From Eledone cirrhosa (Eukaryota), in the NCBI GenBank assembly GCA_964016885.1, contig OZ024764.1:26598001-26662000 (forward strand): 64,000 nucleotides of DNA. The letters run 5' to 3'. Made by a program: the position numbers and the translations under genes. Under the pieces are notes generated by a model that saw only the letters and a program-made list of their open reading frames with translations, had not been told where the DNA came from and made no database searches. Shown one piece after another: positions 1,929-64,000 of this stretch (positions are counted from its first letter, which is position 1; every line of letters begins with the position of its first letter).

Positions 1929-3290
1929 TAATTAAACAAACCTGCGATGAGGCGATGATCAAAATAAACACCAAAGTATAAACAAACAGCCCATAGGTGC
2001 TGCCGGATACACGATAACATGTGTAGACGAAGTAAAACTTTTATTACTGTAATATAAAGTAGAAACCCTTTATTTAAACAAAGCTGCGATGCAGCGATGA
2101 TCAAAACAAACTTCAAATAACATGTGTATACGAAGTGTATCTCGAAGCTTGGTCGTATTATATGACTTTCAAATTGACCCCTATTATATTCAAATTATCC
2201 CCTGTGGGGCGTGCACCCCACGTTGAGAATCCCTCATAAATAAATATATGTGAGTGTGTTGCTATGACTGCTATTTCTAGCAGGTTTACTGCAGTCCTGT
2301 AGACGCACAACAAAAACCGGAAGTGGCAGCCATTAAAAAACTTTGGCTTAAAATCAGGCAAAAGTTTTTTAACAATTTGCCAAGAAAGATAACTCTTGTC
2401 TTACTTAATCGCAAAAATCGAGGCAAAAATTTTGTGGGTGTACAGTTTGTTTGGTGTATTTGACTGCTATTTCTAGCATGTATGGACACTTTAGAAATAG
2501 CAGCGAAAAACGGAAAACAGCAGAAAGAAGGACACACACCTATATATATATATATATATACCAGCTATACACTCACCCATACATATATATATATACCAGC
2601 TATACACACACCCATATCTACGTATAGGTGTGTGTGCGCGCGTGTATGTATATATAAATATATATATTTAAATGTATATATCTGTGCATATATATATGTA
2701 TATATATATACGTGTGTGTCCTTCTTTCTTATGTTTCCCGTGTTTCGCTGCTATTTCTAAAGTGTCCATATATGCTAGAAATAGCAGTCAAATACACCAA
2801 ACAAACTGCACACCCGCAAAATTTTTTGCCTCGATTTTTGCGATTAAGTAAGACAAGAGTTATCTTTCTTGGCAAATTGTTAAAAAACTTTTGCCTGATT
2901 TTAAGCCAAAGTTTTTTAATGGCTTCCACTTCCGGTTTTTGTTGTGCGTCTACAGGACTGCAGTAAACCTGCTAGAAATAGCAGTCATAGCAACACACTC
3001 ACATATATTTATTTATGAGGGATTCTCAACGTGGGGTGCACGCCCCACAGAGGATAATTTGAATATAATAGGGGTCAATTTGAAAGTCATATAATACGAC
3101 CCAACTCCCTGTTACACTTCGTATACACATGTTATCGTGTATCTGGCAGCACCTGCGAGAAGTTTGTTTACATTTTGGGGTTTGCTTTGATGATCGCTGC
3201 ATCTCAGCCTTGTTTAAATAAAGGGTTTCTACTTTATATTACAGTAATAACACTTTTACAAGACTCGGATTGTTTTTATATTAAAGGGGG
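1929..3290. mobile_element. Foldback/MITE-like long inverted repeat P (arms ~2030-2540 and 2712-3290, TA-rich spacer)
   Basis: Arms are near-perfect reverse complements. The mirrored spurious ORFs 2158-2361(-) and 2891-3094(+) are almost identical. Confidence 0.9.
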
Positions 3291-3930
3291 AGATGTTTTT
3301 TAAACTCTGAACTCAGCATCTTTCTGTTGTTCTCCGGGATTCTAGCAAAGTATAAAAAAAAATATATATATATAGATATATATATATATATCTGGCAGTC
3401 AACCTCAGACTCGAAAAAGCCGCCGCTAATCGTGATCGTTGGGGTTATAATTCGACTAAAGTGCTTCCACTGGGCACCATTAGCTGGTTGTGATCATTGG
3501 AGAATTCTTTCTGCGCTGAAAGAGCCTAGGACTAAAAGATATATATATAGATGTCGAAACGGCAGTAGCACAGCCGTTGGGGTCCTGAATATTTTCACAT
3601 CTATATATGTGTGTGTATTCTGCGACATTTATAATTACATAAGCAAGCATATTTGAATAACAAAATTTGAGGTTTAAATACTTTATTTTTTACCAATAAC
3701 ATAGAGAAAGGCATGAACAACACCACATGTTAATTACTTTAATATTGAAAGTAGGCTTATAAATATTAAAAAAGCAGATGTTTGTATCTTTCATGGTGGT
3801 CTGGTGGGTGATACCAGAGATCGTGGTAGTCATGGTTTCGGTTTCAATCCTGGTCATGGGTTACATATAAGGTCTCATTTTTCTTTCTTTCAATTTTCTT
3901 CTTATCTCTAGATATAAATATATATACATA

Positions 3931-4038
3931 AGGTAATTTGGTAGAATTGTTAGAACATCAGATAGAATTCTTTGCAGTATTTTTCCAGTTCTTTACTCTG
4001 AGTTCAACTTTACCTTTCTTCCATTCGGTGTCGATAAG
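3931..4038 (+). mobile_element. Degenerate tRNA-derived SINE (also ~6640, ~9343, ~44039)
   Basis: tggtagaattgttag (A-box-like)...ctgagttcaa (B-box-like)...ctttacctttcttccattcggtgtcgataa, a diverged version of the SINE core seen at 12174-12339. Confidence 0.6.
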
Positions 4039-4735
4039 TCTTGAATATGTCTAACGTAGCAATAACTGGAGCTACTTAACCAAGTTTTCCCAACCTAGTC
4101 GATGTCACCTACTGGTTGGCGATTTAAACTGTTGGCTGGGACAATGACCAACTAATCAGTCAGATTCCAACTCACTATGTCTGGCATATATTTTATATTT
4201 TATATTTGAATGAAGTTCTGTAAGTAACCTGGTGGCTTAGATGGCAATACTGCTCGAATAGATGGCTTCTATTATGAAGTTATAAGTTCATTCCCTATCC
4301 AGGATTGTAGAATTAATTTTATTTAGTTATTATTTAATCAATTGTTTTAACAAACAAATTATATCTATAAAACGCCAAATATAGTGAGTTCAAATCTGAC
4401 TGACATGCATGGTATATATTTATGTTTCATTATACAGCGACACAATACACAGGAACTTATAAAGATATGTATATATTGTCCAGGAGTTTCGAGTTTAGTG
4501 GGAATTGGTACAACTCTCAATTGGAGCTAGTCCCTGCAAGATCAGCATAAATAATGTTATACCTTTTCATGAAATCTTGCACACCCGATATTTTATACAT
4601 GATTATTTAAAGGTGAACAAAAACCAAAGAACATTGTGCAGCATTTCTCAACCTTTCTACCCATGTCGATCTCTTGAAATAGTTTTTATGTCTCAGGGAA
4701 GCCCTGCATAAAATATACTTTTTCTATCTCTAGAG

Positions 4736-4790
4736 CAGTGGTTCCCAAATCGTGTGCTGCGAGATGAAACAAGATGAGCTGCAAAAGACT
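4736..4790 (+). mobile_element. hAT(Charlie)-like 5' terminus (repeated at ~7444, ~10150, ~44844)
   Basis: CAGTGGTTCCCAAA directly preceded by CTCTAGAG, matching the NTCTAGAN target preference of Charlie-type hAT elements. The right boundary is approximate. Confidence 0.6.
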
Positions 4791-5322
4791 AAGATTAAGT
4801 TTTAAGATGTGAAAAATATAAAACTGAAATTTCATATAAAAGTTCAAATATAGCTACAGCCACAAACCTAGGCTCCACACCCCGCAATGCAGAGGATAGT
4901 AAGATAGTACCAAGGCCTGACTCACCTCTTCCACTCCATTGAGACCTCTGCCATACTTGGTCCCTGTACTGCTGATTTCCTCCATAAAGTCGGGAGGAAA
5001 GACAACAGGAGCCTCATGAGGAGGGGCAACTATTGTAGCAGGTGTCTCTGGCCTTGTTCCGAGGTAATGCTTTTACGTTTCTTCCACAGGTTGCGGCTGA
5101 GGGACCACTTAGACTGGGGTGAAGTGTCTGTCCCTCCCCCGACTTCTTACTTCTTTTTTTTCTCATTTTCATTTTCTTTTCTCTTCTTGCTTATCTCTGC
5201 TATACCACGGCATCAAAAACATATATAATATGTGTATGTATGGTATAGGTGTATTTATATTTAGGATAGTTATCAAAGGTAAATAGACTGGTTGGAGCAA
5301 TAACAGTCTTGTTTATGTATAT

Positions 5323-5383
<61 letters not shown>

Positions 5384-5484
5384 TGTTCTTGTATTTCCAT
5401 AGAAAAGGTAAAGAAAAGAAGAATGCTATATATATTGTACAGAGCTATTTAATTACATAATAAACAACAGAATATAATTATTCC

Positions 5485-5736
5485 ATGCAAATAGACTTAG
5501 ACTGGAAAACATTCAGACAGAGAAGAATGGATAATGAGCGTCGTAAGAGAAATTGCCAACAATTAATATTAATGGAAATGTAGAAGAATTTCATATTAGT
5601 GATATGAATGTTTCGTGTGATCACTGTGGAGCTTTGAAATTTAGAAATGAAAATTGTAACTGTTGTAATAAAGGAAAGGTTATGTTGCCACCATTGCAAA
5701 TATACCCTGAGAGACTGAGAAATCTCTTTGAAAGAG
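5485..5736 (+). pseudogene. Helitron Rep/helicase N-terminal fragment, truncated by a snap-back palindrome
   Basis: MNVSCDHCGALKFRNENCNCCNKGKVMLPPL matches the Helitron N-terminal Zn-finger-like motif (CxHCxALxFxxE..CCxxGKVxLP). Confidence 0.85.
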
Positions 5737-5760
5737 ATTTCTCAGTCTCTCAGGGTATAT
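5700..5760. repeat. Perfect palindrome, 30-bp arms with a 1-nt centre
   Basis: atataccctgagagactgagaaatctcttt-g-aaagagatttctcagtctctcagggtatat. Confidence 0.97.
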
Positions 5761-6557
5761 ATTCCCGCCGGTGAAATAAAAATTTTAATAGAAAAACGCC
5801 GGGAATATATGTTACAACCCAACCTACATATTTTTGGGTTGTAACATATATTCCCGCCGTTGAAATAAATATTTTAATAGAAAAACGGCGGGAATATATG
5901 TTACAACCCAATCTATATATATTTGAGTTGTAACATATATTCCCGCCGTTGAAATAAAAATTTTAATAGAAAAACGGCGGGAATATATGTTACAACGCAA
6001 TCTATATATATTTGGGTTGTAACATATATTCCCGCCGTTGAAATAAAAATTTTAATAGAAAAACGGCGGGAATATATGTTACAACCCAACCTATATATGT
6101 TTGGGTTGTAATATATATTCCCGCCGTTTTTCTGTTAAAATTTTTATTTCAACGGCGGGAATATATGTTACAACCCAAATATATGTAGATTGTGTTGTAA
6201 CATATATTCCCGCCGTTTTTCTATTAAAATTTTTATTTCGACGGCGGGAATATATGTTACAACCCAAATATATATAGATTGCGTTGTAACATATATTCCC
6301 GCCGTTTTTCTATTAAAATTTTTATTTCAACGGCGGGAATATATGTTACAACCCAAATATATGTAGATTGGATTGTAACATATATTCCCGCCGTTTTTCT
6401 ATTAAAATTTTTATTTCAACGGCGGGAATATATGTTACAACTCAAATATATATAGATTGGGTTGTAACATATATTCCCGCCGTTTTTCTATTAAAATTTT
6501 TATTTCACCGGCGGGAATATGTTACAACCCAAATATATATATATTGAGTTGTAACAT
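5759..6557. repeat. Array of nine 89-bp double-hairpin units, 4 forward then 5 inverted
   Basis: ttcccgccg recurs at 5762, 5851, 5940, 6029, 6118 and onward (period 89). Loop gaaataaaaattttaatagaaa flips to tttctattaaaatttttatttc after ~6095. Confidence 0.95.
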
Positions 6558-8031
6558 CGGTTACATATAAGGTCTCATTTTTTTTCTTTTCTTTCTTTCA
6601 GTTTTCTTCTTATCTCTAGATATAAATATATACACATGAGGTAACTTGGTAGAATTGTTAGAACATCAGATAGAATTCTTTGCAGTATTTTTCCAGTTCT
6701 TTACTCTGAGTTCAACTTTACCTTTCTTCCATTCAGTGTCGATAAGTCTTGGATATGTCTAACGTAGCAATAACTGGAGCTACTTAACCAAGTTTTCCCA
6801 ACCTAGTCGATGTCACCTACTGGTTGGCGATTTAAACTGTTGGCTGGGACAATGACCAACTAATCAGTCAGATTCGAACTCACTATGTCTGGCATATATT
6901 TTATATTTTATATTTGAATGAAGTTCTGTAAGTAACCTGGTGGCTTAGATGGCAATACTGCTCGAATAGATGGCTTCTATTATGCAGTTATAAGTTCATT
7001 CCCTATCCAGGATTGTAGAATTAATTTTATTTAGTTATTATTTAATCAATTGTTTTAACAAACAAATTATATCTATAAAACGCCAAATATAGTGAGTTCA
7101 AATCTGACTGACATGCATGGTATATATTTATGTTTCATTATACAGCGACACAATACACAGGAACTTATAAAGATATGTATATATTGTCCAGGAGTTTCGA
7201 GTTTAGTGGGAATTGGTACAACTCTCAATTGGAGCTAGTCCCTGCAAGATCAGCATAAATAATGTTATACCTTTTCATGAAATCTTGCACACCCGATATT
7301 TTATACATGATTATTTAAAGGTGAACAAAAACCAAAGAACATTGTGCAGCATTTCTCAACCTTTCTACCCATGTCGATCTCTTGAAATAGTTTTTATGTC
7401 TCAGGGAAGCCCTGCATAAAATATACTTTTTCTATCTCTAGAGCAGTGGTTCCCAAATCGTGTGCTGCGAGATGAAACAAGATGAGCTGCAAAAGACTAA
7501 GATTAAGTTTTAAGATGTGAAAAATATAAAACTGAAATTTCATATAAAAGTTCAAATATAGCTACAGCCACAAACCTAGGCTCCACACCCCGCAATGCAA
7601 AGGATAGTAAGATAGTACCAAGGCCTGACTCACCTCTTCCACTCCATTGAGACCTCTGCCATACTTGGTCCCTGTACTGCTGATTTCCTCCATAAAGTCG
7701 GGAGGAAAGACAACAGGAGCCTCATGAGGAGGGGCGACTATTGTAGCAGGTGTCTCTGGCCTTGCTCCGAGGTAACGCTTTTACGTTTCTTCCACAGGTT
7801 GCGGCTGAGGGACTACTTAGACTGGGGTGAAGTGTCTGTCCCTCCCCCGACTTCTTACTTCTTTTTTTTTCTCATTTTCATTTTCTTTTCTCTTCTTGCT
7901 TATCTCTGCTATACCACGGCATCAAAAACATATATAATATGTGTATGTATGGTATAGGTGTATTTATATTTAGGATAGTTATCAAAGGTAAATAGACTGG
8001 TTGGAGCAATAACAGTCTTGTTTATGTATAT

Positions 8032-8078
<47 letters not shown>

Positions 8079-8189
8079 TATATATGTTTGTTCTTGTATT
8101 TCCATAGAAAAGGTAACGAAAAGAAGAATGCTATATATATTGTACAGAGCTATTTAATTACATAATAAACAACAGAATATAATTATTCC

Positions 8190-8441
8190 ATGCAAATAGA
8201 CTTAGACTGGAAAACATTCAGACAGAGAAGAATGGATAATGAGCGTCGTAAGAGAAATTGCCAACAATTAATATTAATGGAAATGTAGAAGGATTTCATA
8301 TTAGTGATATGAATGTTTCGTGTGATCACTGTAGAGCTTTGAAATTTAGAAATGAAAATTGTAACTGTTGTAATAAAGGAAAGGTTATGTTGCCACCATT
8401 GCAAATATACCCTGAGAGACTGAGAAATCTCTTTGAAAGAG
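8190..8441 (+). pseudogene. Helitron N-terminal fragment, second 2.7-kb unit
   Basis: Same motif as 5485-5736 (ORF 8258-8479), followed by the same palindrome at 8405-8465. Confidence 0.85.
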
Positions 8442-8463
8442 ATTTCTCAGTCTCTCAGGGTAT

Positions 8464-9262
8464 ATATTCCCGCCGGTGAAATAAAAATTTTAATAGAAAA
8501 ACGGCGGGAATATATGTTACAACCCAACCTACATATTTTTGGGCTGTAACATATATTCCCGCCGTTGAAATAAATATTTTAATAGAAAAACGGCGGGAAT
8601 ATATGTTTCAACCCAATCTATATATATTTGAGTTGTAACATATATTCCCGCCGTTGAAATAAAAATTTTAATAGAAAAACGGCGGGAATATATGTTACAA
8701 CGCAATCTATATATATTTGGGTTGTAACATATATTCCCGCCGTTGAAATAAAAATTTTAATAGAAAAACGGCGGGAATATATGTTACAACCCAACCTACA
8801 TATGTTTGGGTTGTAATATATATTCCCGCCGTTTTTCTGTTAAAATTTTTATTTCAACGGCGGGAATATATGTTACAACCCAAATATATGTAGATTGGGT
8901 TGTAACATATATTCCCGCCGTTTTTCTATTAAAATTTTTATTTCGACGGCGGGAATATATGTTACAACCCAAATATATATAGATTGCGTTGTAACATATA
9001 TTCCCGCCGTTTTTCTATTAAAATTTTTATTTCAACGGCGGGAATATATGTTACAACCCAAATATATGTACATTGGATTGTAACATATATTCCCGCCGTT
9101 TTTCTATTCAAATTTTTATTTCAACGGCGGGAATATATGTTACAACTCAAATATATATAGATTGGGTTGTAACATATATTCCCGCCGTTTTTCTATTAAA
9201 ATTTTTATTTCACCGGCGGGAATATGTTACAACCCAAATATATATATATTGAGTTGTAACAT
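8464..9262. repeat. Second copy of the 89-bp double-hairpin array
   Basis: Near-identical to 5759-6557 at offset 2705. Confidence 0.95.
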
Positions 9263-10875
9263 GGGTTACATATAAGGTCTCATTTTTTTTCTTTTCTTTC
9301 TTTCAGTTTTCTTCTTATCTCTAGATATAAATATATATACATGAGGTAACTTGGTAGAATTGTTAGAACATCAGATAGAATTCTTTGCAGTATTTTTCCA
9401 GTTCTTTACTCTGAGTTCAACTTTACCTTTCTTCCATTCAGTGTCGATAAGTCTTGAATATGTCTAACGTAGCAATAACTGGAGCTACTTAACCAAGTTT
9501 TCCCAACCTAGTCGATGTCACCTACTGGTTGGCGATTTAAACTGTTGGCTGGGACAATGACCAACTAATCAGTCAGATTCGAACTCACTATGTCTGGCAT
9601 ATATTTTATATTTTATATTTGAATGAAGTTCTGTAAGTAACCTGGTGGCTTAGATGGCAATACTGCTCGAATAGATGGCTTCTATTATGCAGTTATAAGT
9701 TCATTCCCTATCCAGGATTGTAGAATTAATTTTATTTAGTTATTATTTAATCAATTGTTTTAACAAACAAATTATATCTATAAAACGCCAAATATAGTGA
9801 GTTCAAATCTGACTGACATGCATGGTATATATTTATGTTTCATTATACAGCGACACAATACACAGGAACTTATAAAGATATGTATATATTGTCCAGGAGT
9901 TTCGAGTTTAGTGGGAATTGGTACAACTCTCAATTGGAGCTAGTCCCTGCAAGATCAGCATAAATAATGTTATACCTTTTCATGAAATCTTGCACACCCG
10001 ATATTTTATACATGATTATTTAAAGGTGAACAAAAACCAAAGAACATTGTGCAGCATTTCTCAACCTTTCTACCCATGTCGATCTCTTGAAATAGTTTTT
10101 ATGTCTCAGGGAAGCCCTGCATAAAATATACTATTTTCTATCTCTAGAGCAGTGGTTCCCGAATCGTGTGCTGCGAGATGAAACAAGATGAGCTGCAAAA
10201 GACTAAGATTAAGTTTTATGATGTGAAAAATGTAAAGCTGAAATTTCATATAAAAGTTCAAATATAGCTACAGCCACAAACCTAGGCTCCACACCCCGCA
10301 ATGCAGAGGATAGTAAGATAGTACCAAGGCCTGACTCACCTCTTCCACTCCATTGAGACCTCTGCCATACTTGGTCCCTGTACTGCTGATTTCCTCCATA
10401 AAGTCGGGAGGAAAGATGACAGGAGCCTCATGAGGAGGGGCGACTATTGTAGCAGGTGTCTCTGGCCTTGCTCCGAGGTAACGCTTTTACGTTTCTTCCA
10501 CAGGTTGCGGCTGAGAGACCACTTAGACTGGGGTGAAGTGTCTGTCCCTCCCCCGACTTCTTACTTCTTTTTTTTTCTCCTTTTCATTTTCTTTTCTCTT
10601 CTTGCTTATCTCTGCTATACCACGGCATCAAAAACATATATGATATATGTATGTATGGTATAGGTGTATTTATATTTAGGATAGTTATCAAAGGTAAATA
10701 GACTGGTTGGAGCAATAACAGTCTTGTTTATGTATATACATATATATATATATTTATATGTTTGTTCTTGTATTTCCATAGAAAAGGTAAAGAAAAGAAT
10801 AGTGCTCTATGTATTGTACAGAGCTATTTAATTACATAATAAACAACAGAATGGAAAACATTCAGACAGAGAAGA

Positions 10876-11593
10876 ATGGATAATGAGCGTTGTAAGAGAA
10901 ATTGGCCAACAATTAATATTAATGGAAATGTAGAAGAATTTCATATTAGTGATATGAATGTTTCGTGTGATCACTGTGGAGCTTTGAAATTTAGAAATGA
11001 AAATTGTAACTGTTGTAATAAAGGAAAGGTTGTGTTGCCACCATTGCAAATATACCCTGAGAGACTGAGAAATCTCTTTGAAAGAGGCCAGGAAGCAGTT
11101 GATTTCACAGAAACATCTGCAATTAAAACTACATTTATTTCACTTCATTTGGTGTTACCACCCGGCAGAGGCCCGTATAGCTTTCATATTCAGGGTCAAA
11201 CATATCACTACACCCCCATCTCTGTAACCTGCAGAAAATACACCACAATATGGCCAGTTATATATTATTGATGGGAACGAAGGTATGTAGCACAGATTGG
11301 AAGTACGTCTAAATAATTGTTTCTAGCACAAGGCCAGCAATTACTGGTACTTTATTCTATCGACCTAATAAGGATGAAAACAAAGTCAACCTTGGAGGGA
11401 TTTGAACCCAGAACGTAAAGGGACATAACCCTATGCTGTAAAGCATGGTGTCTGGCGCTCTACCGATACTGCCAATCCACTGCCCTAGTACCAACAAATA
11501 ATGACTGCTCACCACAAAAAATGGCTATGATAAGAGAAGTGTTGCATGAATGTAATTCATATGTCGAAGTGTACAATACAATGCATGGCATCA
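10876..11593 (+). pseudogene. Helitron 5' fragment interrupted by a SINE
   Basis: Zn-finger-like motif plus PPGRGPYSFHIQGQTYH (cf. GPYxFRIxGQxYH) and YGQLYIIDG. Colinear with 35827-36544 until atgcatggcatca, then diverges. Confidence 0.85.
11318..11485 (-). mobile_element. tRNA-derived SINE (octopus-type, Deu/Nin-like core)
   Basis: Minus strand reads gggcagtggattggcagtatcggtagagcg (A box)...ggttcaaatcc (B box)...gttgactttgttttcatcc...gtcgatagaataaagtaccagt...agaaaca(att). Confidence 0.85.
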
Positions 11594-35649: not shown

Positions 35650-35681
<32 letters not shown>

Positions 35682-35785
35682 GTTTGTTCTTGTATTTCTA
35701 TAGAAAAGGTAAAGAAAAGAAGAATGCTCTATGTATTGTACAGAGCTATTTAATTACATAATAAACAACAGAATATAATTATTCC

Positions 35786-38140
35786 ATGCAAATAGACTTA
35801 GAATGGAAAACATTCAGACAGAGAAGAATGGATAATGAGCGTCGTAAGAGAAATTGGCCAACAATTAATATTAATGGAAATCTAGAAGAATTTCATATTA
35901 GTGATATGAATGTTTCGTGTGATCACTGTGAAGCTTTGAAATTTAGAAATGAAAATTGTAACTGTTGTAATAAAGGAAAGGTTGTGTTGCCTCCATTGCA
36001 AATATACCCCGAGAGACTGAGAAATCTCTTTGAAAGAGGCCAGGAAGCAGTTGATTTCACAGAAACGTCTGCAATTAAAACTACATTTATTTCACTTCAT
36101 TTGGTGTTACCACCCGGCAGAGGCCCGTATAGCTTTCATATTCAGGGTCAAACATATCACTACACCCCCATCTCTGTAACCTGCAGAAAATACACCACAA
36201 TATGGCCAGTTATATATTATTGATGGGAACGAAGGTGTGTAGCACAGATTGGAAGTACGACCAAATAATTGTTTCTGGCACAAGGCCAGCAATTACTGGT
36301 ACTTTATTCTATCGACCTCATAAGGATGAAAACAAAGTCAACCTTGGAGGGATTTGAACCCAGAACGTAAAGGGCCATAACCCTATGCTGCAAAGCATGG
36401 TGTCTGACGCTCTACCGATACTGCCAATCCACCGCCCTAGTACCAACAAATAATGAGTGCTCACCACAAAAAATGGCTATGATAAGAGAGGTGTTGCGTG
36501 ATGTAATCCATATGTCGAAGTGTACAATACAATGCATGGCATCAAACAGCAAAGTGCAAGAAGAGAAAATTGTTGTGTACAGAACTGTAAATTAAGATTT
36601 AGAAGAGGATCAGATATGAGCTGCTATAATTTACCAACTAGTAATGATAGCTGTTGTTTTGTGGGGGATTGAGGGCAGACCACCTGTACAAAGAGATATT
36701 ATCATCTTTCCTAAAGACCATCCTCCTCAGAATATATCACATAATTCATGCCACTTGGACCTCATGACCAACCCATAATGGTGAATTTTGGTGGCATAGT
36801 GACATGGAGAGGAATGCAGGACCTGTGTTTGCAATAGACTGACAATGCAGGAGTATTACATATACAGTATAGCATATAGAGGAGGATTTAGTGCGATATA
36901 TAGGGCAGGTAAATTATTTTAGCAGTATTTAGTGGAAGCCTATATGAAAGTAGGGGGATGCAGGCTTCAATATTTGAGGAACAATCAAGCCCAATTGTGA
37001 GTGGATGAGTATAATGGTTTAATGAATTATCTAAACAGATGATAACACTGAGCCTTAAGAAATGAAGACAAGATAAGAAACAGAGAAGACATTGACAGAA
37101 TCGTGTCAGCAGAAATACCTGCATTGGAAGATGATCAAGTACTACATGAGCAGGTTTAAAAGTTTATGATACACGGGCCATGTGGTTCTGGAAACCCTTT
37201 TCCCCCATTTATACAAAATGGATTTTTCCAAAAGAACTATCCAAAAACCTACAGAAGGGAAACATTATTGAACCTAAATGGATACCCAGAGTACAGGAGG
37301 TGCAAGACAGGAACTGCAGTGTAAATTGGATGACATTCAGTAGATAACAGGAATGTTGTGCCATTTAATGCCTTTTTGCTTAAGAAATATTGTGCATATA
37401 TTAATGTTGAAGTTTGCGCTTCTGTAAAAAGTGTCAAGTACCTCTTTAAATATGTTACATGGGGCATGATTGTACATCTATAGAAGTAACGAATAATGCA
37501 TTACCTAATGAGGCTCAGAACCAACACAACCATGATGAAATAAGAACCTATCTTTGTTGCAGGTATGTGTCTCAGCCAGAAGCAGTGTCGTGTCTGTCCG
37601 AATTTAAGCTTCATGGTACATCACATACATTATACAGCCTAGCCACACACCTGGAGAACAAACAGAGTTTACTTTCAAAGAGGCAATGCTCAGGTTGTGG
37701 TAGAAATGCAGGGACCCTTGCTGCCTGGTTCAAGCTAAATGAACTTGCTTACACCTTCTGGGATGCCGCCTCACAAACTCCAATTAAAAGCAGGATCAAT
37801 AATAATGCTTCTATGGAATATTTCAATCCAGAACAGATTATGTAATGGCACAAGATTAGAAGTAGTAGAACTGCATAAACATTTTATCAAAGCTTCTCAT
37901 ATCTATGGTCCTTTGATGGGCAGGTGTGTTTTGATCCCAAGACTGAAGTTAGCCCCCAGTGGTGCCAACATCCTTTTTACTTCGGAAAGACCCCAGTTTC
38001 CATTAAGACTGTCATATGCCATGACAATCAACAAGAACCATGGTCAAATACATGATAAAGTGGGTCTGTTCCTCCCTGAGCAAGTATTTAACCCTGGACA
38101 ATTGTATGTTGCTTTTTCAAGAGTTCACAGACAGATGTAA
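35786..38140 (+). mobile_element. Decayed, internally deleted Helitron Rep/PIF1-helicase pseudogene
   Basis: Motifs in order: Zn-finger-like motif; GPYSFHIQGQTYH; GKLF*QYLVEAYMKV..RLQYLRNNQ (~36905-36990); DIDRIVSAEIP..MIHGPCG (~37088-37186); INVEVCASVKSVKYLFKYV..GHD..DEIRTYL..RYVS (Rep motif 3); PSGMPPHKLQLK..LCNGTRL..QFPLRLSYAMTINKNHGQ..VFNPGQLYVAFSRV (PIF1 C-terminus). Many stops and frameshifts. Confidence 0.93.
36270..36437 (-). mobile_element. tRNA-derived SINE inserted in the Helitron ORF
   Basis: Same element as 11318-11485. Flanked by an imperfect 16-bp direct repeat, agtacgaccaaataat (36254-36269) and agtaccaacaaataat (36439-36454). Confidence 0.85.
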
Positions 38141-38712: not shown

Positions 38713-39300
38713 AAACTATAACACATATAACTCTATCAGTGAAGCCCTTTAGTATAGGTCAACTGGGAAACTATAACACATATAACCCTATCAGTGAAGT
38801 CCTTTAGTATAGGTCAACTGGAAAACTATAACACATATAACCCTATCAGTGAAGTCCTTTAGTATAGGTCAACTGGGAAACTATAACACATATAACCCTA
38901 TCAGTGAAGTCCTTTAGTATAGGTCAACTGGGAAACTATAACACATATAACCCTATCAGTGAAGCCCTCTGGGAAACTATAACACATATAACTCTATCAG
39001 TGAAGCCCTTTAGTATAGGTCAACTGGGAAACTATAACACATATAACCCTATCAGTGAAGTCCTTTAGTATAGGTCAACTGGGAAACTATAACACATATA
39101 ACCCTATCAGTGAAGTCCTTTAGTATAGGTCAACTGGGAAATTATAACACATATAACCCTATCAGTGAAGTCCTTTAGTATAGGTCAACTGGGAAACTAT
39201 AACACATATAACCCTATCAGTGAAGTCCTTTAGTATAGGTCAACTGGGAAACTATAACACATATAACCTTATCAGTGAAGTCCTTTAGTATAGGTCAACT
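38713..39300. repeat. 55-bp minisatellite, 11 units (one 41-bp truncated)
   Basis: aaactataacacatataaccctatcagtgaagtcctttagtataggtcaactggg starts at 38713, 38768, 38823, 38878, 38933 (short), 38974, 39029, 39084, 39139, 39194, 39249. Confidence 0.97.
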
Positions 39301-39935: not shown

Positions 39936-40516
39936 GATTTGTTTCTTCTTCCTCTCTTCCGAGAAACAATCGTGTATTTTTTAAATCTATTCCATGCGTT
40001 AAGTAATTAGCAGCAACAACAAACTGATTTTCAGTTGTAAAAAGAATCTTTAAACCTTCACCATTTACATTAACACATACCATACGTTGTCCCAGCCACA
40101 AATAAACAGTAAAAAAAACTTACTTTGCGGTTAAATTCGTCACAATTAAAAGAAAAATATTTCTAACACGTTTCTAGACAACACCAAGTTTACACCTTCA
40201 ATATCCGGTAAAAGTAAAAACAAATTCTGGAGACATTTAACGAAACGAAACTATGTAAAGAAAAACGAAAATTAAACGAAGACAAATAGTAAATTTTAAT
40301 TTTTATTAAATAAAATACCAGTAATTCACTGCAGTAGATTTAATCAACTTTAGTCTCTCTGCACAAAAGAAGAAAAAAATTCCTGACTTAGTGCTTAATA
40401 TATAGAGAGGGGGAGAGTTTGGTGTTTCTTCATATAGAGAGGGGTATTGGAAGAGAGTGCCGTGTAGTAGATATAGAGAGGGAGAGAGTTAGTGCTAATT
40501 GATATAAAGAGGGGGA

Positions 40517-41574
40517 TATTCAATTATCCCCTGTGGGGCGTGCACCCCACGTTGAGAATACCTCATAAATAAATATATGTGAGTGTGTTTCTATGACTGC
40601 TATTTCTAGCAGGTTTACTGCAGTCCTGTAGACGCACAACAAAAACCGGAAGTGGCAGCCATTAAAAAACTTTGGCTTAAAATCAGGCAAAAGTTTTTTA
40701 ACAATTTGCCAAGAAAGATAACTCTTGTCTTACTTAATCGCAAAAATCGAGGCAAAAATTTTGCGGGTGTGCAGTTTGTTTGGTGTATTTGACTGCTATT
40801 TCTAGCATGTATGGACACTTTAGAAATAGCAGCGAAAAACGGAAAACAGCAGAAAGAAGGACACACACCTATATATATATATATATATATATACCAGCTA
40901 TACACTCACCCATACATATATATATATATATACCAGCTATACACACACCCATATCTACGTATAGGTGTGTGTGCGCGCGTGTATGTATATATAAATATAT
41001 ATATTTAAATGTATATATCTGTGCATATATATATGTATATATGTATATATATATGTATATATGTATATATATATATATATATACAGATACATAATTATAT
41101 ATATATATATACTTGTGTGACCTTCTTTCTTATGTTTCCCGTGTTTTGCTGCTATTTCTAAAGTGTCCATATATGCTAGAAATAGCAGTCAAATACACCA
41201 AACAAACTGCACACCCGCAACATTTTTGCCTCGATTTTTGCGATTAAGTAAGACAAGAGTTATCTTTCTTGGCAAATTGTTAAAAAACTTTTGCCTGATT
41301 TTAAGCCAAAGTTTTTTAATGGCTGCCACTTCCGGTTTTTGTTGTGCGTCTACAGGACTGCAGTAAACCTGCTAGAAATAGCAGTCATAGCAACACACTC
41401 ACATATATTTATTTATGAGGGATTCTCAACGTGGGGTGCACGCCCCACAGGGGATAATTTGAATATAATAGGGGTCAATTTGAAAGTCATATAATACGAC
41501 CCAACTCCCTGTTACACTTCGTATACACATGTTATCGTGTATCTGGCAGCACCTGCGAGAAGTTTGTTTACATT
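40517..41574. mobile_element. Foldback inverted repeat P' (duplicate of P)
   Basis: Arms ~40517-40870 and ~41115-41574 are reverse complements. The spacer matches 2540-2710 with microsatellite changes. Confidence 0.9.
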
Positions 41575-41599: not shown

Positions 41600-42219
41600 C
41601 AGTAGTTCCAAACCTTTTTTGCTCCATGCCCCACCTCAACGTTTAAAAATTAGGTTTATGTTCCCCTTTAATATAGAAATAAACCGAGTCTTGTAAAAGT
41701 GTTACTACTGTAATATAAAGTAGAAATGCTTTAATTAAACAAAGCTACGATGCCGCGATGATCAAAACAAACTTCAAAATATAAACAAACTTCTCGTAGC
41801 TGCTGCCAGATACACGATAACATGTGAACAAAGTGTAACTGGAAGTTTGGTCGTATTATATCACTTTCTAATTGGCCCCTATTAAATTCAAATTGCCCCC
41901 TGTGGGGCGTGTACCCTTCGTTGAGAATCCCTGATATATAAATATACATAAGTGTGTTGTTATGACTGCTATTTCTAGTAGGTTTCTGGCTGTCCTGTAG
42001 ACGCACAACAAAAACCGGAAGTGGCAGCCATTAAAAAACTTCGGCTTAAAATCAGCCAAAAGATTTTCAATAATAGTAAAATTTTATTTTTGACAAGGAC
42101 GATAACTTTTGTCTTACTTAATCGCAAAAATCGAGGCAAAAATTTTGCGGGTGTCCAGTTAACACGCTAAAATAAACCTGCTAGAAATAGCAGTCATAGC
42201 CACTCACATATATTTATAT

Positions 42220-42255
<36 letters not shown>

Positions 42256-42648
42256 CCAAACACACACACTTATATATGTACGTGTGTGTGTGTTGACCGC
42301 TATATATATATATAGCAGCCAAACACATACACAGACACACATATATATATATATACATGTGTGTGTCCTCCTCTCGTCTATGGCTGTTATTTTTACATTG
42401 TCCTTTTTGTTATTTTTCTCGGGATTTGCCCGGATTCGAACATGCGACCACCTATTTACAATATAGAATCTTTACAGCTTTACTGACTTTTAAGTAATCG
42501 AAGTTGTAACCCCGGATTTAGGGGTGTTTAATTTATTTTGAAGTATTTTATTATTGGTCTTAGTTAGACGATCGTCCAAGACCATGCTGGGGCATATATA
42601 TATATATGTATATATATGTGTGTGTGTATGCTGGGGCATATATATATA

Positions 42649-42702
<54 letters not shown>

Positions 42703-43392
42703 CTGGGGCATATATATATATGTGTGTGTGTGTATATATATATATGTGTGTGTGTGTGTGTCCTTTCTGTTATTCGCTGCTATTTCTAAAGTGTCCATAT
42801 ATATATCATATATATATATATATGATATATAAATATATGTAAGTGAGTTGCTATGACTGCTATTTCTAGCAGGTTTATTTTTAGCGTGTAAACTGCACAC
42901 CCTCAAAATTTTTGCCTCGATTTTTGCGATTAAGTAAGACAAAAGTTATCGTCCTTGTCAAAAATAAAATTTTACTATTATTGAAAATCTTTTGGCTGAT
43001 TTTAAGCCAAAGTTTTTTAATGGCTGCCACTTCCGGTTTTTGTTGTGCGTCTACAGGACTGCAGTAAACCTGCTAGAAATAGCAGTCATAGCAACACACT
43101 CACATATATTTATTTATGAGGGATTCTCAACGTGGGGTGCACGCCCCACAGGGGATAATTTGAATATAATAGGGGTCAATTTGAAAGTCATATAATACGA
43201 CCCAACTCCCTGTTACACTTCGTATACACATGTTATCGTGTATCTGGCAGCACCTGCGAGAAGTTTGTTTACATTTTGGGGTTTGCTTTGATGATCGCTG
43301 CATCGCAGCTTTGTTTAAATAAAGGGTTTCTACTTTATATTACAGTAATAACACTTTTACAAGACTCGGATTGTTTTTATATTAAAGGGGAC
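41600..43392. mobile_element. Second foldback inverted repeat P'' with a hAT-like left terminus
   Basis: Starts CAGTAGTTCCAAACCTTTTT. Arms ~41660-42215 and ~42830-43392 are reverse complements. Mirrored spurious ORFs 41868-42059(-) and 42992-43195(+). Confidence 0.88.
42421..42460 (-). other. tRNA/SINE-like B-box remnant in the P'' spacer
   Basis: Minus strand ggtcgcatGTTCGAATCCgggcaaatccc. No full cloverleaf is recognisable. Confidence 0.3.
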
Positions 43393-45569
43393 ATGTTTTT
43401 TAAACTCTGAACTCAGCATCTTTCTGTTGTTCTCCGGGATTCTAGCAAAGTATAAAAATATATATATATATATATAGATATATATATATATATCTGGCAG
43501 TCAACCTCAGACTCGAAAAAGCCGCCGCTAATCGTGATCGTTGGGGTTACAATTAGACTAAAGTGCTTCCACTGGGCACCATTAGCTGGTTGTGATCATT
43601 GGAGAATTCTTTCTGCGCTGAAAGAGCCTAGGACAAAAATATATATATATAGATGTCGAAACGGCAGTAGCACAGCCGTTGGGGTCCTGAATATTTTCAC
43701 ATCTATATATGTGTGTGTATTCTGCGACATTTATAATTACATAAGCAAGCATATTTGAATAACAAAATTTGAGGTTTAAATACTTTATTTTTTACCAATA
43801 ACATAGAGAAAGGCATGAACAACACCACATGTTAATTACTTTAATATTGAAAGTAGGCTTATAAATATTAAAAAAGCAGATTTTTGTATCTTTCATGGTG
43901 GTCTGGTGGGTGATACCAGAGATGGTGGTAGTCCTGGTTTCGGTTTCAATCCTGGTCATGGGTTACATATAAGGTCTCATTTTTTTTTTTCTTTCTTTCA
44001 GTTTTCTTCTTATCTCTAGATATAAATATATATACATAAGGTAATTTGGTAGAATTGTTAGAACATCAGATAGAATTCTTTGCAGTATTTTTCCTGTTCT
44101 TTACTCTGAGTTCAACTTTACCTTTCTTCCATTCGGTGTCGATAAGTCTTGAATATGTCTAACGTAGCAATAACTGGAGCTACTTAACCAAGTTTTCCCA
44201 ACCTAGTCGATGTCACCTACTGGTTGGCGATTTAAACTGTTGGCTGGGACAATGACCAACTAATCAGTCAGATTCGAACTCACTATGTCTGGCATATATT
44301 TTATATTTTATATTTGAATGAAGTTCTGTAAGTAACCTGGTGGCTTAGATGGCAATACTGCTCGAATAGATGGCTTCTATTATGAAGTTATAAGTTCATT
44401 CCCTATCCAGGATTGTAGAATTAATTTTATTTAGTTATTATTTAATCAATTGTTTTAACAAACAAATTCTGTCTATAAAACGCCAAATATAGTGAGTTCA
44501 AATCTGACTGACATGCATGGTATATATTTATGTTTCATTATACAGCGACACAATACACAGGAACTTATAAAGATATGTATATATTGTCCAGGAGTTTCGA
44601 GTTTAGTGGGAATTGGTACAACTCTCAATTGGAGCTAGTCCCTGCAAGACCAGCATAAATAATGTTATACCTTTTCATGAAATCTTGCACACCCGATATT
44701 TTATACATGATTATCTAAAGGTGAACAAAAACCAAAGAACATTGTGCAGCATTTCTCAACCTTTCTACCCATGTCGATCTCTTGAAATAGTTTTTATGTC
44801 TCAGGGAAGCCCTGCATAAAATATACTTTTTCTATCTCTAGAGCAGTGGTTCCCAAATCGTGTGCTGCGAGATGAAACAAGATGAGCTGCAAAAGACTAA
44901 GATTAAGTTTTATGATGTGAAAAATATAAAACTGAAATTTCATATAAAAGTTCAAATATAGCTACAGCCACAAACCTAGGCTCCACACCCCGCAATGCAG
45001 AGGATAGTAAGATAGTACCAAGGCCTGACTCACCTCTTCCACTCCATTGAGACCTCTGCCATACTTGGTCCCTGTACTGCTGATTTCCTCCATAAAGTCG
45101 GGAGGAAAGATGACAGGAGCCTCATGAGGAGGGGCGACTATTGTAGCAGGTGTCTCTGGCCTTGCTCCGAGGTAACGCTTTTACGTTTCTTCCACAGGTT
45201 GCGGCTGAGGGACCACTTAGACTGGGGTGAAGTGTTTGTCCCTCCCCCGACTTCTTACTTCTTTTTTTTTCTCCTTTTCATTTTCTTTTCTCTTCTTGCT
45301 TATCTCTGCTATACCACGGCATCAAAAACATATATGATATATGTATGTATGGTATAGGTGTATTTATATTTAGGATAGTTATCAAAGGTAAATAGACTGG
45401 TTGGAGCAATAACAGCCTTGTTTATGTATATACATATATATATATATTTACATGTTTGTTCTTGTATTTCCATAGAAAAGGTAAAGAAAAGAAGAGTGCT
45501 CTATGTATTGTACAGAGCTATTTAATTACATAATAAACAACAGAATGGAAAACATTCAGACAGAGAAGA

Positions 45570-46287
45570 ATGGATAATGAGCGTTGTAAGAGAAATTGGC
45601 CAACAATTAATATTAATGGAAATGTAGAAGAATTTCATATTAGTGATATGAATGTTTCGTGTGATCACTGTGGAGCTTTGAAATTTAGAAATGAAAATTG
45701 TAACTGTTGTAATAAAGGAAAGGTTGTGTTGCCACCATTGCAAATATACCCTGAGAGACTGAGAAATCTCTTTGAAAGAGGCCAGGAAGCAGTTGATTTC
45801 ACAGAAACATCTGCAATTAAAACTACATTTATTTCACTTCATTTGGTGTTACCACCCGGCAGAGGCCCGTATAGCTTTCATATTCAGGGTCAAACATATC
45901 ACTACACCCCCATCTCTGTAACCTGCAGAAAATACACCACAATATGACCAGTTATATATTATTGATGGGAACGAAGGTGTGTAGCACAGATTGGAAGTAC
46001 AACCAAATAATTGTTTCTGGCACAAGGCCAGCAATTACTGGTACTTTATTCTATCGACCTCATAAGGATGAAAACAAAGTCAACCTTGGAGGGATTTGAA
46101 CCCAGAACGTAAATGGCCATAACCCTATGCTGTAAAGCATGGTGTCTGGCGCTCTACCGATACTGCCAATCCACTGCCCTAGTACCAACAAATAATGACT
46201 GCTCACCATAAAAAATGGCTATGATAAGAGAAGTGTTGCATGAACGTAATTCATATGTCGAAGTGTACAATACAATGCATGGCATCA
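45570..46287 (+). pseudogene. Helitron 5' fragment (copy B) containing a SINE at 46012-46179(-)
   Basis: Near-identical to 10876-11593, with an extra premature stop at 45945-45947. Confidence 0.85.
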
Positions 46288-47018: not shown

Positions 47019-47160
47019 TGTTTCTATTTTAGGCACAAGGTCAGTAATTAACCAGTACATTACTAGTACTTTATTTTATCGACCCCGTAAGGATGAAAGG
47101 CAAAGTTGACCTCGGATCGTAAAGGGACGTAACTATGCTGGAAAGCATGGCGTCAGACCC
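47019..47160 (-). mobile_element. SINE (duplicate of 12174-12339), truncated by the satellite
   Basis: Identical core. Ends at cgtcagaccc, fused directly to GA modules. Confidence 0.85.
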
Positions 47161-50100
47161 GAGAGACAGAGAGAGCGAGATGACACGAGACAGAGAGCGA
47201 GATGAAATGAGAGAGAGAGAGAGAGAGATGAAACGAGAGAGAGAGTGCGAGATGAAACGAGAGTGAGAGAGCGAGATGAAACGAGAGAGTGAGAGCGAGA
47301 TGAAATGAGAGAGAGAGAGAACGAGATGAAATGAGAGAGAGAGAGAGCGAGATGAAATGAGACATAGAGAGATGAAACGAGAGAGAGATGAAACGAGAAA
47401 GAGAGGAAACGAGAGAGAGGAAACGTGAGTAGAGAGCGAGATGAAACAGGAGAGAGAGAGCGAGATGAAACGAGAGGGAGAGAGAGATGAAACGAGAGAG
47501 CGAGAGAGAGATAGAGGGAAATGAAACGACAGAGAGAGAGACAGATGAAACGAGGGATATAGAGATGAAACGAGAGAGAGAGATGAAACGAGAGAGAGGA
47601 AGAGAGAGATAGAACGAGAGAGAGGAAGAGAGAGATGAAACGAGAGAGAAGAAGACAGAGGTGAAACGAGAGAGAGAGAGAGCGAGATGAAACGAGAGAG
47701 AGAGAGCGAGATGAAACGAGAGAGAGGAAGAGAGAGAGCGAGAGATGAAACTCTGTCATGGACATATCTGACCCTGGGGCTAATAATTGTCATGTAATGT
47801 TATGGACATCTCTGCCCCTGTGGCTAATAATTCTGTCATGTAATGTTATGGAAATCTCTGCCCCTGTGGCTAATAATTCTGACATGTAATGTTATGGAAT
47901 CTCTGCCCCTGTGGCTAATAAATCTGTCATTTAATGTTACGGACATCTCTGCCACTGTGGCTAATAAATCTGTCATGTAATGTTATGGACATCTCTGCCC
48001 CTGTGGCTAATAATTCTGACATGTAATGTTATGGACATCTCTGCCCCTGTAGCTAATAATTCTGACATGTAATGTTATGGACATCTCTGCCCCTGTGGCT
48101 AATAAATTCGGCATGTAATGTTATGGACATCTCTGCCCCTGTGGCTAATAAATCTGTCATGTAATGTTATGGACATCTCTGCCCCTGTGGCTAATAATTC
48201 TGACATGTAATGTTATGGACATCTCTGCCCCTGTGGCTAATAATTCTGACATGTAATGTTATGGACATCTCTGCCCCTGTGGCTAATAATTCTGAGAGAG
48301 ATGAAACAAGTGAGGGATTAGAGAGAGATGAAACAAGTGAGGGATTAGAGTGTTGAAACAAGAGAGAGAGAGGAAGAGAGAGTGAGAGCGAGATGAAACG
48401 AGAGAGAGAGAGAGCGAGATGAAATGAGAGAGAGAGAGCGAGATGAAATGAGAGAGAGAGAGCGAGATGAAACGAGACAGAGAGAGCGGGATGAAACGTG
48501 ACAGAGAGAGCAAGAGCGAGATGAAACGAGACAGAGAGAGCGAGATGAAACGAGAGAGAGAGAGCGAGATGAAATGAGAGAGAGAGAGCGAGATGAAATG
48601 AGAGAGAGAGAGCGAGATGAAACGAGAGAGTGAGAGCGAGATGGAACGAGACAGAGAGAGCGAGATGAAACGAGAGTAGGAGAGCTAGATGAAACGAGAG
48701 AGAGAGGAAACGAGAGATACGAAACGAGAGAGAGGAAACGAGAGTAGAGAGCGAGATGAAACAGGAGAGAGAGAGCGAGATGAAACAGGAGAGAGAAAGC
48801 GAGATGAAACGAGAGGGAGAGAGAGATGAAACGAGAGAGCGAGAGAGAGATAGAGGGAGATGAAACGAGGGAGATAGAGATGAAACGAGAGAGAGAGATG
48901 AAACGAGAGAGAGGAAGAGAGAGATGGAACGAGAGAGAGGAAGAGAGAGATGGAACGAGAGAGAGGAAGACAGAGATGAAACGAGAGAGAGAGAGAGCAA
49001 GATGAAACGAGAGAGAGGAAGAGAGAGATGGAACGAGAGAGAGGAAGAGAGAGATGGAACGAGCGAGAGGAAGACAGAGATGAAACGAGACAGAGAGAGA
49101 TCGAGATGAAACGAGAGAGAGGAAGAGAGAGAGCGCAAGATGAAACGAGAGAGAGAGAGCGAGATGAAACGAGAGAGAGGAAGAGAGAGAGCGCGAGATG
49201 AAACGAGAGAGAGGAAGAGAGAGAGCGCGAGATGAAGTGAGAGAGAGAGAGCGAGATGAAATGAGAGATTGAGAGTGAGATGAAACGAGAGAGTGAGAGA
49301 GAGCGAGATGAAATGAGAGAGAGAGAGCCAGATGAAATGAGAGAGAGAGAGAGCGAGATGAAATGAGAGAGAGAGAGCGAGATGAAACGAGACAGAGAGA
49401 GCGGGATGAAACGAGACAGAGAGATCGAGATGAAATGAGAGAGAGAGAGCGAGATGAAACGAGAGAGTGAGAGCGAGATGGAACGAGTCAGAGAGAGCGA
49501 GATGAAACGAGAGAGTGAGAGCTAGATGAAACGAGAGAGAGAGGAAACGAGAGAGAGAGGAAACTAGAGAGAGGAAACAAGAGAGAGGAAACGAGAGTAG
49601 AGAGCAAGATGAAACAGGAGAGAGAGAGAGCGAGATGAAACCGGAGAGAGAGAGCGAGATGAAACGAGAGGGAGGGAGAGATGAAACGAGAGAGCGAGAG
49701 AGAGATAGAGGGAGATGAAACGAGAGAGTGATAGCTAGATGAAACGAGAGAGAGAGGAATAGAGAGATGGAACGAGAGAGAGGAAGACAGATATGAAACG
49801 AGAGAGAGAGAGAGCGAGATGAAACGAGAGAGAGGAAGAGAGAGAGCGCGAGATGAAACGAGAGAGAGAGAGCGAGATGAAACGAGAGAGAGAGAGCGAG
49901 ATGAAACGAGAGAGAGAGAGCGAGATGAAACGAGAGAGAGGAAGAGAGAGAGCGCGAGATGAAAGTCTGTCATGTAATGTTATGGACATATCTGCCCTTG
50001 GGGCTAATAATTGTCATGTAATGTTATGGACATATCTACCCTTGGGGCTAATAATTGTCATGTAATTTTATGTACATCTCTGCCCCTGTGGCAAATAATT

Positions 50101-63700: not shown

Positions 63701-64000
63701 TGTCCATAACATTACATGTCAGAATTATTAGCCACAGGGCAGAGATGTCCATAACATTACATGTCAGAATTATTAGCCACAGGGGCAGAGATGTCCATAA
63801 CATTACATGTCAGAATTATTAGCCACAGGGGCGGAGACGTCCATAACATTACATGACAGAATTATTAGCCACAGGGGCAGAGATGACCATAACATTACAT
63901 GACAATTATTAGCCACAGGGGCAGATATATCAATAACATTACATGATAGAGTTTCATCTCGCGCTCTCTCTCTCGTTTCATCTTGCGCTCTCTCTCTCTC
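57723..64000 (-). repeat. Composite satellite copy B, right arm (incomplete)
   Basis: Inverted 46-bp arrays and CT cassettes. The first two cassettes are colinear with 26233-28397. Confidence 0.97.

What the first reader, a model, noticed from the sequence alone, without database searches (positions are those of the whole stretch)
5759..6557. Palindrome of palindromes: 89-bp units of two abutting hairpins, arrayed as a mirror image
Seen: each unit is atattcccgccgtt[22-nt loop]aacggcgggaatat followed by atgttacaacccaa[11-nt loop]ttgggttgtaacat. Four units face forward and five are inverted. Private variants are mirrored: cgccggtgaa (~5766) vs ttcaccggcg (~6504), ttgagttg (~5922) vs caactcaa (~6438), caacgcaatc (~5993) vs gattgcgttg (~6277). 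The segment can fold as many short cruciforms or one ~400-bp hairpin. It occurs only at the triplication junctions and not in copy B. Inference: either a Foldback-type transposon with internally repetitive arms or a product of iterative hairpin-primed (rolling-hairpin-like) synthesis.
Basis: partly seen in the sequence, partly recalled or inferred. Interest (0 to 1): 0.7.

Follow-up and report, generated by a model that had tools for sequence, protein, structure and literature searches.

The report
Mirrored chain of tiny mariner transposons
The mirror-image repeat is a chain of copies of a 78-base dead jumping gene that turns round once in the middle; it likely arose from one faulty DNA repair, now sits in 88 near-identical copies on three chromosomes, and its two arms have likely swapped and copied sequence since, which makes it an ordinary but unusually well-recorded piece of repeat evolution.

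Summary
It is not two hairpins: it is one 78-bp mariner MITE (28-bp terminal inverted repeats, TIRs) plus an 11-bp (TA)n-like spacer. Single copies lie across the genome, 58 of 76 with TA on both sides, and a decayed transposase-bearing parent has the same TIRs. The array is cut inside TIRs at both ends, so it has no transposon ends. It fills the junction of a 1.88-kb tandem duplication, entered through a perfect 30-bp snap-back hairpin of host DNA (ATAT microhomology) and left through CAT microhomology. All 88 arrays found share the left junction, so they descend from one event and cannot test breakpoint enrichment. All have exactly one turn, which argues against iterative rolling-hairpin synthesis. 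The 267-bp centre exists in two opposite orientations among paralogues (265 of 267 identical). The mirrored variants are lineage-restricted, so they most likely record later arm-to-arm copying. Closest known: Bari1 tandem arrays, MADE1, TmSat2 dyad cassettes. The scan had not noted this array before; it noted other mirrored or transposon-born satellites in this genome. Real, explicable, modest interest.

The parts
3855..5736 (+). Copy 1 of the 1.88-kb duplicated host segment; ends at the left breakpoint
   Evidence: matches 6555-8441, 9260-11086 and 43957-45780 at about 95-97%
5700..5760 (.). Host snap-back hairpin: arms 5700-5729 and 5731-5760, 1-nt loop. Only the inner 6 bp exist in the unrearranged allele; 5737-5760 is new sequence
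   Evidence: compared with copy B and with 11086; fold
5757..5760 (+). ATAT microhomology between the snap-back tract and the MITE TIR
5757..5822 (+). MITE 1, forward, lacking the outer part of its left TIR
5834..6089 (+). MITEs 2-4, forward, whole (5834-5911, 5923-6000, 6012-6089), with 11-bp spacers
5986..6252 (.). Central block that lies in the opposite orientation in most paralogous arrays; holds the centre spacer 6090-6100 and the turn
   Evidence: 265 of 267 identical to the reverse strand of the array at G000:C18:34946753
6101..6532 (-). MITEs 5-9, reverse (6101-6178, 6190-6267, 6279-6356, 6368-6445, 6457-6532; the last has a 2-bp deletion in a TIR)
6533..6557 (.). Terminal pure (AT)n spacer and a 14-nt TIR stub; CAT (6555-6557) is the microhomology to the host at 3855
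6555..8441 (+). Copy 2 of the 1.88-kb segment
8405..9262 (.). Twin hairpin and twin array (second 2.7-kb repeat of the same junction)
9260..11086 (+). Copy 3 of the segment, running on into the unrearranged host sequence
10891..11268 (+). Decayed, probably Helitron RepHel N-terminal reading frame; the left breakpoint cuts its copies at 5736 and 8441
   Evidence: translation; no Pfam hit; weak Atlas lead to a cluster with 35% Helitron_like_N, score 0.90; motif likeness otherwise recalled
43957..45780 (+). Copy B: unrearranged allele without array, the comparison for both junctions

Best explanation
The array is a head-to-tail chain of one 78-bp mariner MITE copy with 11-bp spacers that turns round once at a terminal inverted repeat and fills the junction of a 1.88-kb duplication; it was likely made by one template-switching repair event, likely grew in place by unequal exchange, and its arms have likely exchanged sequence since. 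Steps: (1) shown: the unit is the MITE. (2) shown as sequence, inferred as mechanism: a broken host end folded on a 6-bp inverted repeat, copied 24 nt of itself, jumped by ATAT into a MITE TIR, copied MITE DNA and rejoined by CAT 1.88 kb upstream (snap-back SD-MMEJ or MMBIR type). (3) inferred: the insert, which starts and ends at the same point of the 89-bp unit, expanded by unequal exchange or slippage. (4) shown: a scar-free turn in TIR register; inferred: made by a strand switch between TIRs (fold-back or inversion, not separable here). (5) shown: 88 paralogues in three clusters; inferred: spread passively with a larger host repeat. (6) shown: two centre orientations and lineage-restricted mirrored variants; inferred: a flip or inverted gene conversion from a sister array. 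No function is needed.
For: Unit: 76 whole single elements of 72-82 bp in 82 loci, TA on both sides in 58 of 76; array unit 85% identical to their majority sequence, singles median 87.5%. Parent at G000:C10:29431405-29432887 has the same TIRs, TA flanks and Transposase_1 / HTH_Tnp_Tc3_2 / DDE_3 matches. Junctions. One event: 88 left junctions (C18 18, C20 14, C25 56); the same right junction found in 86 of 86 parsed; 241 unrearranged alleles, on 8 contigs among the 100 listed. One turn, 2-12 forward and 2-5 reverse units. Flip: 23 of 23 arrays with the window's centre spacer match its block in the same sense, 62 of the other 63 match it better reversed; the window's lineage is one 25-row clade, 97/91. 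Mirrored variants: C59G in both arms in 22 of 86, all in that clade; A54G in both arms in 5 of 86, all C20; T29C in both in 3 of 86, all C18; T11G in the reverse arm of 82 and the forward arm of 35 of 86. Both TIRs carry one private A>T change seen on both sides in 0 of 76 singles.
Against: No donor MITE or donor array with the array's private core was found (fully listed; one search lists only C1 to C18), so the capture step has no template in hand. About 11 of 939 hits of the unit-junction word are unplaced (my estimate after allowing for 2 unparsed arrays and 8 singles). Units differ 2.6% from their consensus while flanks differ about 0.3-0.6%, which fits a pre-formed array captured from a lost site equally well. 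The flank tree is mostly unresolved (10 of 58 inner branches starred, bootstrap not settled) and tandem paralogues recombine, so the polarity of T11G is not fixed. An 800-bp templated insert is far longer than typical Pol-theta tracts (recalled), which is why in-place growth has to be assumed.
Confidence: 0.65

Rival explanations
1. Bari1-like route: an 89-nt circle (MITE plus spacer) was copied round and round and the concatemer inserted at a break, the 1.88-kb duplication being a giant target duplication; the turn came later by inversion between TIRs.
For: The insert starts and ends within 2 nt of the same point of the unit. No donor array was found. Bari1 arrays show partial end elements and a ~500-nt duplication, with rolling-circle replication proposed (PMC5932611, passages).
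Against: It does not explain the host snap-back hairpin without adding a repair step. A fresh concatemer would have identical units, yet ordered variants such as A21T+G77A are shared by arrays on all three contigs. A whole number of units also follows from in-place growth.
Confidence: 0.17
2. The whole mirror was made in the same repair event: the new strand copied a pre-existing direct array, folded back once on a TIR and copied itself (single-turn form of the first reader's hairpin-primed idea).
For: The same junction already shows one snap-back. The turn has no scar. The order G77A, T67C, none appears in both arms of the longest arrays. A fold-back model exists for the Angel MITE (described in PMC12628747, passages).
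Against: In most lineages the arms do not mirror their private variants (C58T reverse 78, forward 6; A61T forward 24, reverse 0; A57G forward 37, reverse 0 of 86). No donor array was found.
Confidence: 0.12
3. A Foldback-type transposon with internally repetitive arms.
For: Long inverted arms built of subrepeats, arm length variable.
Against: One insertion site only; ends cut inside TIRs and joined by microhomology; no target duplication of transposon type; the linked transposase is a mariner whose TIRs are internal to every unit.
Confidence: 0.02
4. Iterative rolling-hairpin synthesis built the units.
For: Every unit is self-complementary, and one snap-back is evident at the left junction.
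Against: Repeated fold-backs give alternating orientations; 86 of 86 parsed arrays run forward then reverse with one turn.
Confidence: 0.02
5. Assembly or long-read fold-back artefact.
For: Palindromes are a known artefact class (recalled).
Against: 88 copies with nested private variants; short-read contigs of runs X1 and X2 (two studies) carry array pieces of 119 and 138 nt. No listed contig spans the turn, and one run may be the source of the assembly.
Confidence: 0.01

Closest known systems
MADE1 / Hsmar1 (human mariner MITE; PMC1784062, passages read)
   Same: About 80-bp non-autonomous mariner derivative made almost wholly of TIRs, hairpin-forming, with a ~1.3-kb transposase parent (here 1,272 bp at L149; 1,483 bp at L113, which holds an extra insert).
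   Different: 28-bp TIRs with a ~22-bp core instead of 37 + 6; different sequence; tandem mirrored arrays were not described for MADE1 in the passages seen.
Bari1 tandem arrays of Drosophila melanogaster (PMC5932611, passages read; Marsano 2003 not seen)
   Same: Tc1/mariner-family element in head-to-tail array, partial element at the edge, flanked by a long duplication unlike normal transposition.
   Different: Here the unit is a MITE with intact TIRs, the array is 4-15 units, has an internal turn, and the flanking duplication is 1.88 kb with a snap-back hairpin.
Tribolium madens TmSat2 macro-dyad cassettes (PMC13081366, passages read)
   Same: Fixed borders, one conserved inversion point, variable unit number per arm; inversion proposed to arise by ectopic recombination between similar inverted subunits.
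   Different: Under 1.4 kb and 88 copies rather than thousands of multi-kb arrays; the unit is a whole MITE; no sign of a centromeric role was tested.
Snap-back SD-MMEJ (PMC5728401, passages read) and ODIRA template switching (PMC10766183, abstract only)
   Same: Short inverted repeat primes hairpin synthesis, then microhomology annealing; strand switch at inverted repeats makes inverted copies.
   Different: Here inferred from fossil junctions only; insert far longer and coupled to a 1.88-kb duplication.
MITE-derived satellites Xstir and miDNA4 (as described in reviews PMC12628747 and PMC9659126, passages read)
   Same: A MITE is the source of tandem repeats.
   Different: Those amplify internal parts or hybrids; here the whole MITE with both TIRs is the monomer.
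Arm-to-arm gene conversion in Y-chromosome palindromes (PMC8600007, search listing only; otherwise recalled)
   Same: Variants copied between inverted arms; centre inverts.
   Different: Arms of 0.2-1 kb, no genes, few events.

Membership tests
Tc1/mariner MITE (the 78-bp unit) | Short, non-coding, bounded by TIRs | tested here: met
   72-82 bp, 28-bp TIRs, 76 whole elements in 82 loci; loci were chosen by TIR match, so TIR identity is biased upward
Tc1/mariner MITE (the 78-bp unit) | TA target duplication at dispersed, unrelated sites | tested here: met
   TA 5' in 66, 3' in 67, both in 58 of 76; no empty sites compared, and many sit in (TA)n
Tc1/mariner MITE (the 78-bp unit) | Shares TIRs with a mariner transposase element | tested here: met
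   L113/L148, L149, L150 carry both TIRs round a transposase; Pfam PF01359 over cut-off in two pieces; D-to-D spacing of 34 counted by eye across a frameshift
Tc1/mariner MITE (the 78-bp unit) | Currently mobilisable (intact transposase in the genome) | tested here: inconclusive
   Longest open stretch 257 aa in 8 of 8 loci examined; the search scored 20 candidates only
Foldback transposon (the whole array) | Long inverted arms of internal subrepeats | tested here: met
Foldback transposon (the whole array) | Defined outer termini with a target duplication | tested here: not met
   Ends cut inside TIRs, joined by 4-nt and 3-nt microhomology
Foldback transposon (the whole array) | Independent insertions at different sites | tested here: not met
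   88 copies with one left junction; same right junction in 86 of 86 parsed; variant words found only in the three clusters
Rolling-hairpin concatemer | Alternating head-to-head and tail-to-tail units | tested here: not met
   One turn in 86 of 86
Snap-back SD-MMEJ / MMBIR junction | Pre-existing short inverted primer repeat extended into a longer hairpin, then microhomology | tested here: met
   6-bp natural repeat, 24-nt extension, ATAT and CAT microhomologies
Snap-back SD-MMEJ / MMBIR junction | Dependence on Pol theta or a named repair pathway | not testable with these tools
   Fossil junction only
Helitron central tandem repeat | Array lies inside an element with TC...CTRR ends and a 3' hairpin | not tested
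   Only a weak lead that the flank is a RepHel fragment; element ends were not mapped

The most novel reading that the evidence does not exclude
MITE-built mini-palindromes act as self-editing cassettes: the cruciform centre breaks repeatedly and is patched from the opposite arm or from a sister array in inverted orientation, so 88 paralogues record arm-to-arm conversion and flip isomerisation at under 1 kb, and such breaks help drive the growth of the megabase repeat clusters that carry them.
Probability: 0.15. Interest if true: 0.55.

Novelty: new variant of a known kind. Interest (0 to 1): 0.28.

Why it matters
It is a compact, fully readable history of how a dead transposon becomes a mirrored satellite: parent mariner, dispersed MITE, repair junction with both microhomologies, a single turn, and later inverted exchange are all still in one genome. 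The 88 paralogues let one count unit gain and loss, flips and arm-to-arm copying in a palindrome far smaller than those usually studied. It reveals no new enzyme, gene or function, and each step has a described precedent.

Tried and rejected
Pfam PF01359 search of the genome: none of the 30 loci fetched carried this TIR; the parent was found instead among TIR hits. No exhaustive search for full-length parents was possible, so their number is a lower bound. Donor search: none for two ancestral variants (40 and 51 hits, all in the three clusters) and none for the common core on C1-C17 (contigs after C18 not listed). Pfam gave nothing for the flanking reading frame. No RNA holder listed, which says nothing on expression. 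Runs X6 and X7 did not cover the array, which is no proof of absence. Earlier-findings look-ups near the locus and by sequence gave nothing relevant. Considered and dropped: Ginger-type TGT...ACA ends for hairpin b (an effect of register), a Helitron 3' hairpin, viral hr palindromes (all recalled, none tested further once the MITE was found). Literature: six searches showed no description of this MITE or array in the listings; PMC13282606 (part 1 of 3 read) counts 73 recently active Tc1-Mariner and 65 MITE families in O. vulgaris without sequences, and its repeat library and supplements, which I did not see, may hold this family. Rows dropped: 4 overlapping loci before the count; 2 of 88 arrays are not in the tallies; the C18:34944070 row has a deleted right flank and a long branch in the tree.

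Full report
Observation. The segment 5757-6557 is nine copies of an 89-bp period, four cores forward and five reverse, with a twin at 8462-9262 that differs at 8 of 824 positions. It folds at -395 kcal/mol against -83 for 20 shuffles. The two arrays sit between three tandem copies of a 1.88-kb segment (3855-5736, 6555-8441, 9260-11086); a fourth copy at 43957-45780 has no array. The description is correct.

The unit is a mariner MITE read out of register. A 24-base unit-junction word has 939 exact hits in the 3.0-Gb genome, control 0; the first eight listed are isolated. These are single elements of about 80 bp in unrelated flanks. A TIR pattern gave 917 hits at up to one mismatch, 661 of them inside the 86 parsed arrays. 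In 82 loci chosen by such hits there were 76 whole elements of 72-82 bp, with TA on both sides in 58. The array unit in this register (for example 6012-6089) is 78 bp and 85% identical to their majority sequence. So hairpin A is the inner TIR halves plus core, and hairpin b is the outer TIR halves of two neighbours plus an 11-bp spacer. A parent lies at G000:C10:29431405-29432887: same TIRs, TA flanks, a transposase broken by stops, a frameshift and an insert near its 3' end, with Pfam Transposase_1, HTH_Tnp_Tc3_2 and DDE_3 matches. Four further near-full copies are 89-94% identical; none of 8 loci has an open stretch over 257 aa. The build is that of human MADE1 and Hsmar1 (PMC1784062, passages).

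The array was not inserted by transposase. It begins inside a left TIR and ends 14 nt into another. On the left, the unrearranged allele has a 6-bp inverted repeat at the break; the rearranged allele extends it by 24 nt into a perfect 30-bp hairpin (5700-5760) and passes into the TIR through ATAT. On the right it rejoins the host 1.88 kb upstream through CAT. This matches the snap-back product described for SD-MMEJ (PMC5728401, passages); the pathway is inferred. A Tc1-family array with partial end elements and a long flanking duplication is known for Bari1, where rolling-circle copying or dimer expansion were proposed (PMC5932611, passages).

One event, then passive spread. The left junction occurs 88 times: 18 on C18, 14 on C20, 56 on C25. 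I parsed 86; all have the same right junction, and the other two read the same way. They hold 899 of the 939 word hits. The unrearranged allele has 241 hits, on eight contigs among the 100 listed, often in tandem repeats of 8 kb or more. Flanks differ by about 0.3-0.6%, units by 2.6% from their consensus. The copies therefore cannot test enrichment at breakpoints. No donor was found (the last listing only to C18). Since the insert starts and ends at the same point of the unit, growth in place from a short permuted piece is the simplest reading; capture of a since-lost array or of a rolling-circle product remains open.

The mirror. All 86 parsed arrays run forward then reverse with one turn, 2-12 and 2-5 units. 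This rules out alternating rolling-hairpin products. The turn is in exact TIR register without extra bases, so it was homology-guided; fold-back and inversion give the same structure and I cannot separate them. Both TIRs of the unit share one A>T change that 0 of 76 single elements carry on both sides, another sign of TIR-to-TIR copying.

The arms have changed since. The block 5986-6252 matches the reverse strand of a C18 array at 265 of 267 positions, private variants included. All 23 arrays with the window's centre spacer match it in the same sense, and 62 of the other 63 match it better reversed. The window's lineage forms one 25-row clade in the flank tree (97/91; two members lost the centre by unit deletion), though most of the tree is unresolved. 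C59G is in both arms in 22 of 86, only in that clade, and in the reverse arm alone in C18. T11G is in the reverse arm of 82 and the forward arm of 35. A54G is mirrored only in 5 C20 arrays, T29C only in 3 C18 arrays. Other variants stay in one arm (C58T reverse 78, forward 6; A57G forward 37, reverse 0). The best reading is a few later inverted exchanges, within an array or from a sister array. These are about four events, not 86 independent ones.

Independent data. Short-read contigs of runs X1 and X2 (two studies, organisms A and B) carry array pieces of 119 and 138 nt; none listed spans the turn, and one run may be the assembly's source. No RNA holder was listed.

Comparison and verdict. 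Fixed borders, a conserved inversion point and variable unit number also describe TmSat2 cassettes of Tribolium madens (PMC13081366, passages). MITE-derived satellites are reviewed in PMC12628747 and PMC9659126 (passages). Six searches listed no account of this family or of a whole-MITE array with a turn; supplements were not seen. The host looks like an octopod from a recalled SINE motif, untested. The unit's identity is close to certain; the full chain of events I put at 0.65. New variant of a known kind, interest 0.28.

Noticed in passing
window 12500-35650 and 47100-64000: Giant mirrored satellite blocks: runs of a 46-bp unit alternate with GA-rich tracts and turn round at about 25955 and 57700; the same build is in G000:C20:26.89-26.93 Mb.
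   Followed up: partly
window 2032-3259, 40516-41574, 41662-43391: Long inverted-repeat (foldback-like) elements with arms of 300-600 bp, also in every 8.2-kb repeat on C23.
   Followed up: no
window 10891-11268, 35651-36544, 45560-46020: Decayed reading frame resembling a Helitron RepHel N-terminus, repeated in each host unit; the host repeat may be Helitron-derived.
   Followed up: partly
G000:C25:26.47-29.07 Mb: The arrays face + up to 27.99 Mb and - from 28.66 Mb, a megabase-scale inversion ending 0.28 Mb from the contig end.
   Followed up: no
L119:27-505 (G000:C12, near 40.741 Mb): Three copies of the same MITE within 500 bp, two of them a 115-bp tandem duplication: an independent start of MITE tandemisation.
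   Followed up: no
L040-L147 against L113:306-365 and 1729-1788: The MITE has two core types, one resembling the parent's 5' end and one its 3' end, suggesting two separate births (judged by eye).
   Followed up: partly
L039:2560-2720 (G000:C18, near 34.9426 Mb): The longest array (12 + 3 units) has lost most of the 1.88-kb segment on its right side.
   Followed up: no
window 38713-39300: 55-bp tandem repeat, about 11 copies, with a higher-order 261-bp period.
   Followed up: no
each TIR, e.g. window 5851-5858: The TIR holds TTCCCGCC, which resembles an E2F site (recalled); the arrays hold many such words.
   Followed up: no
L078-L107: At least four other mariner families with TIRs that start like this one; several loci in the search table have open frames of 340-468 aa.
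   Followed up: no
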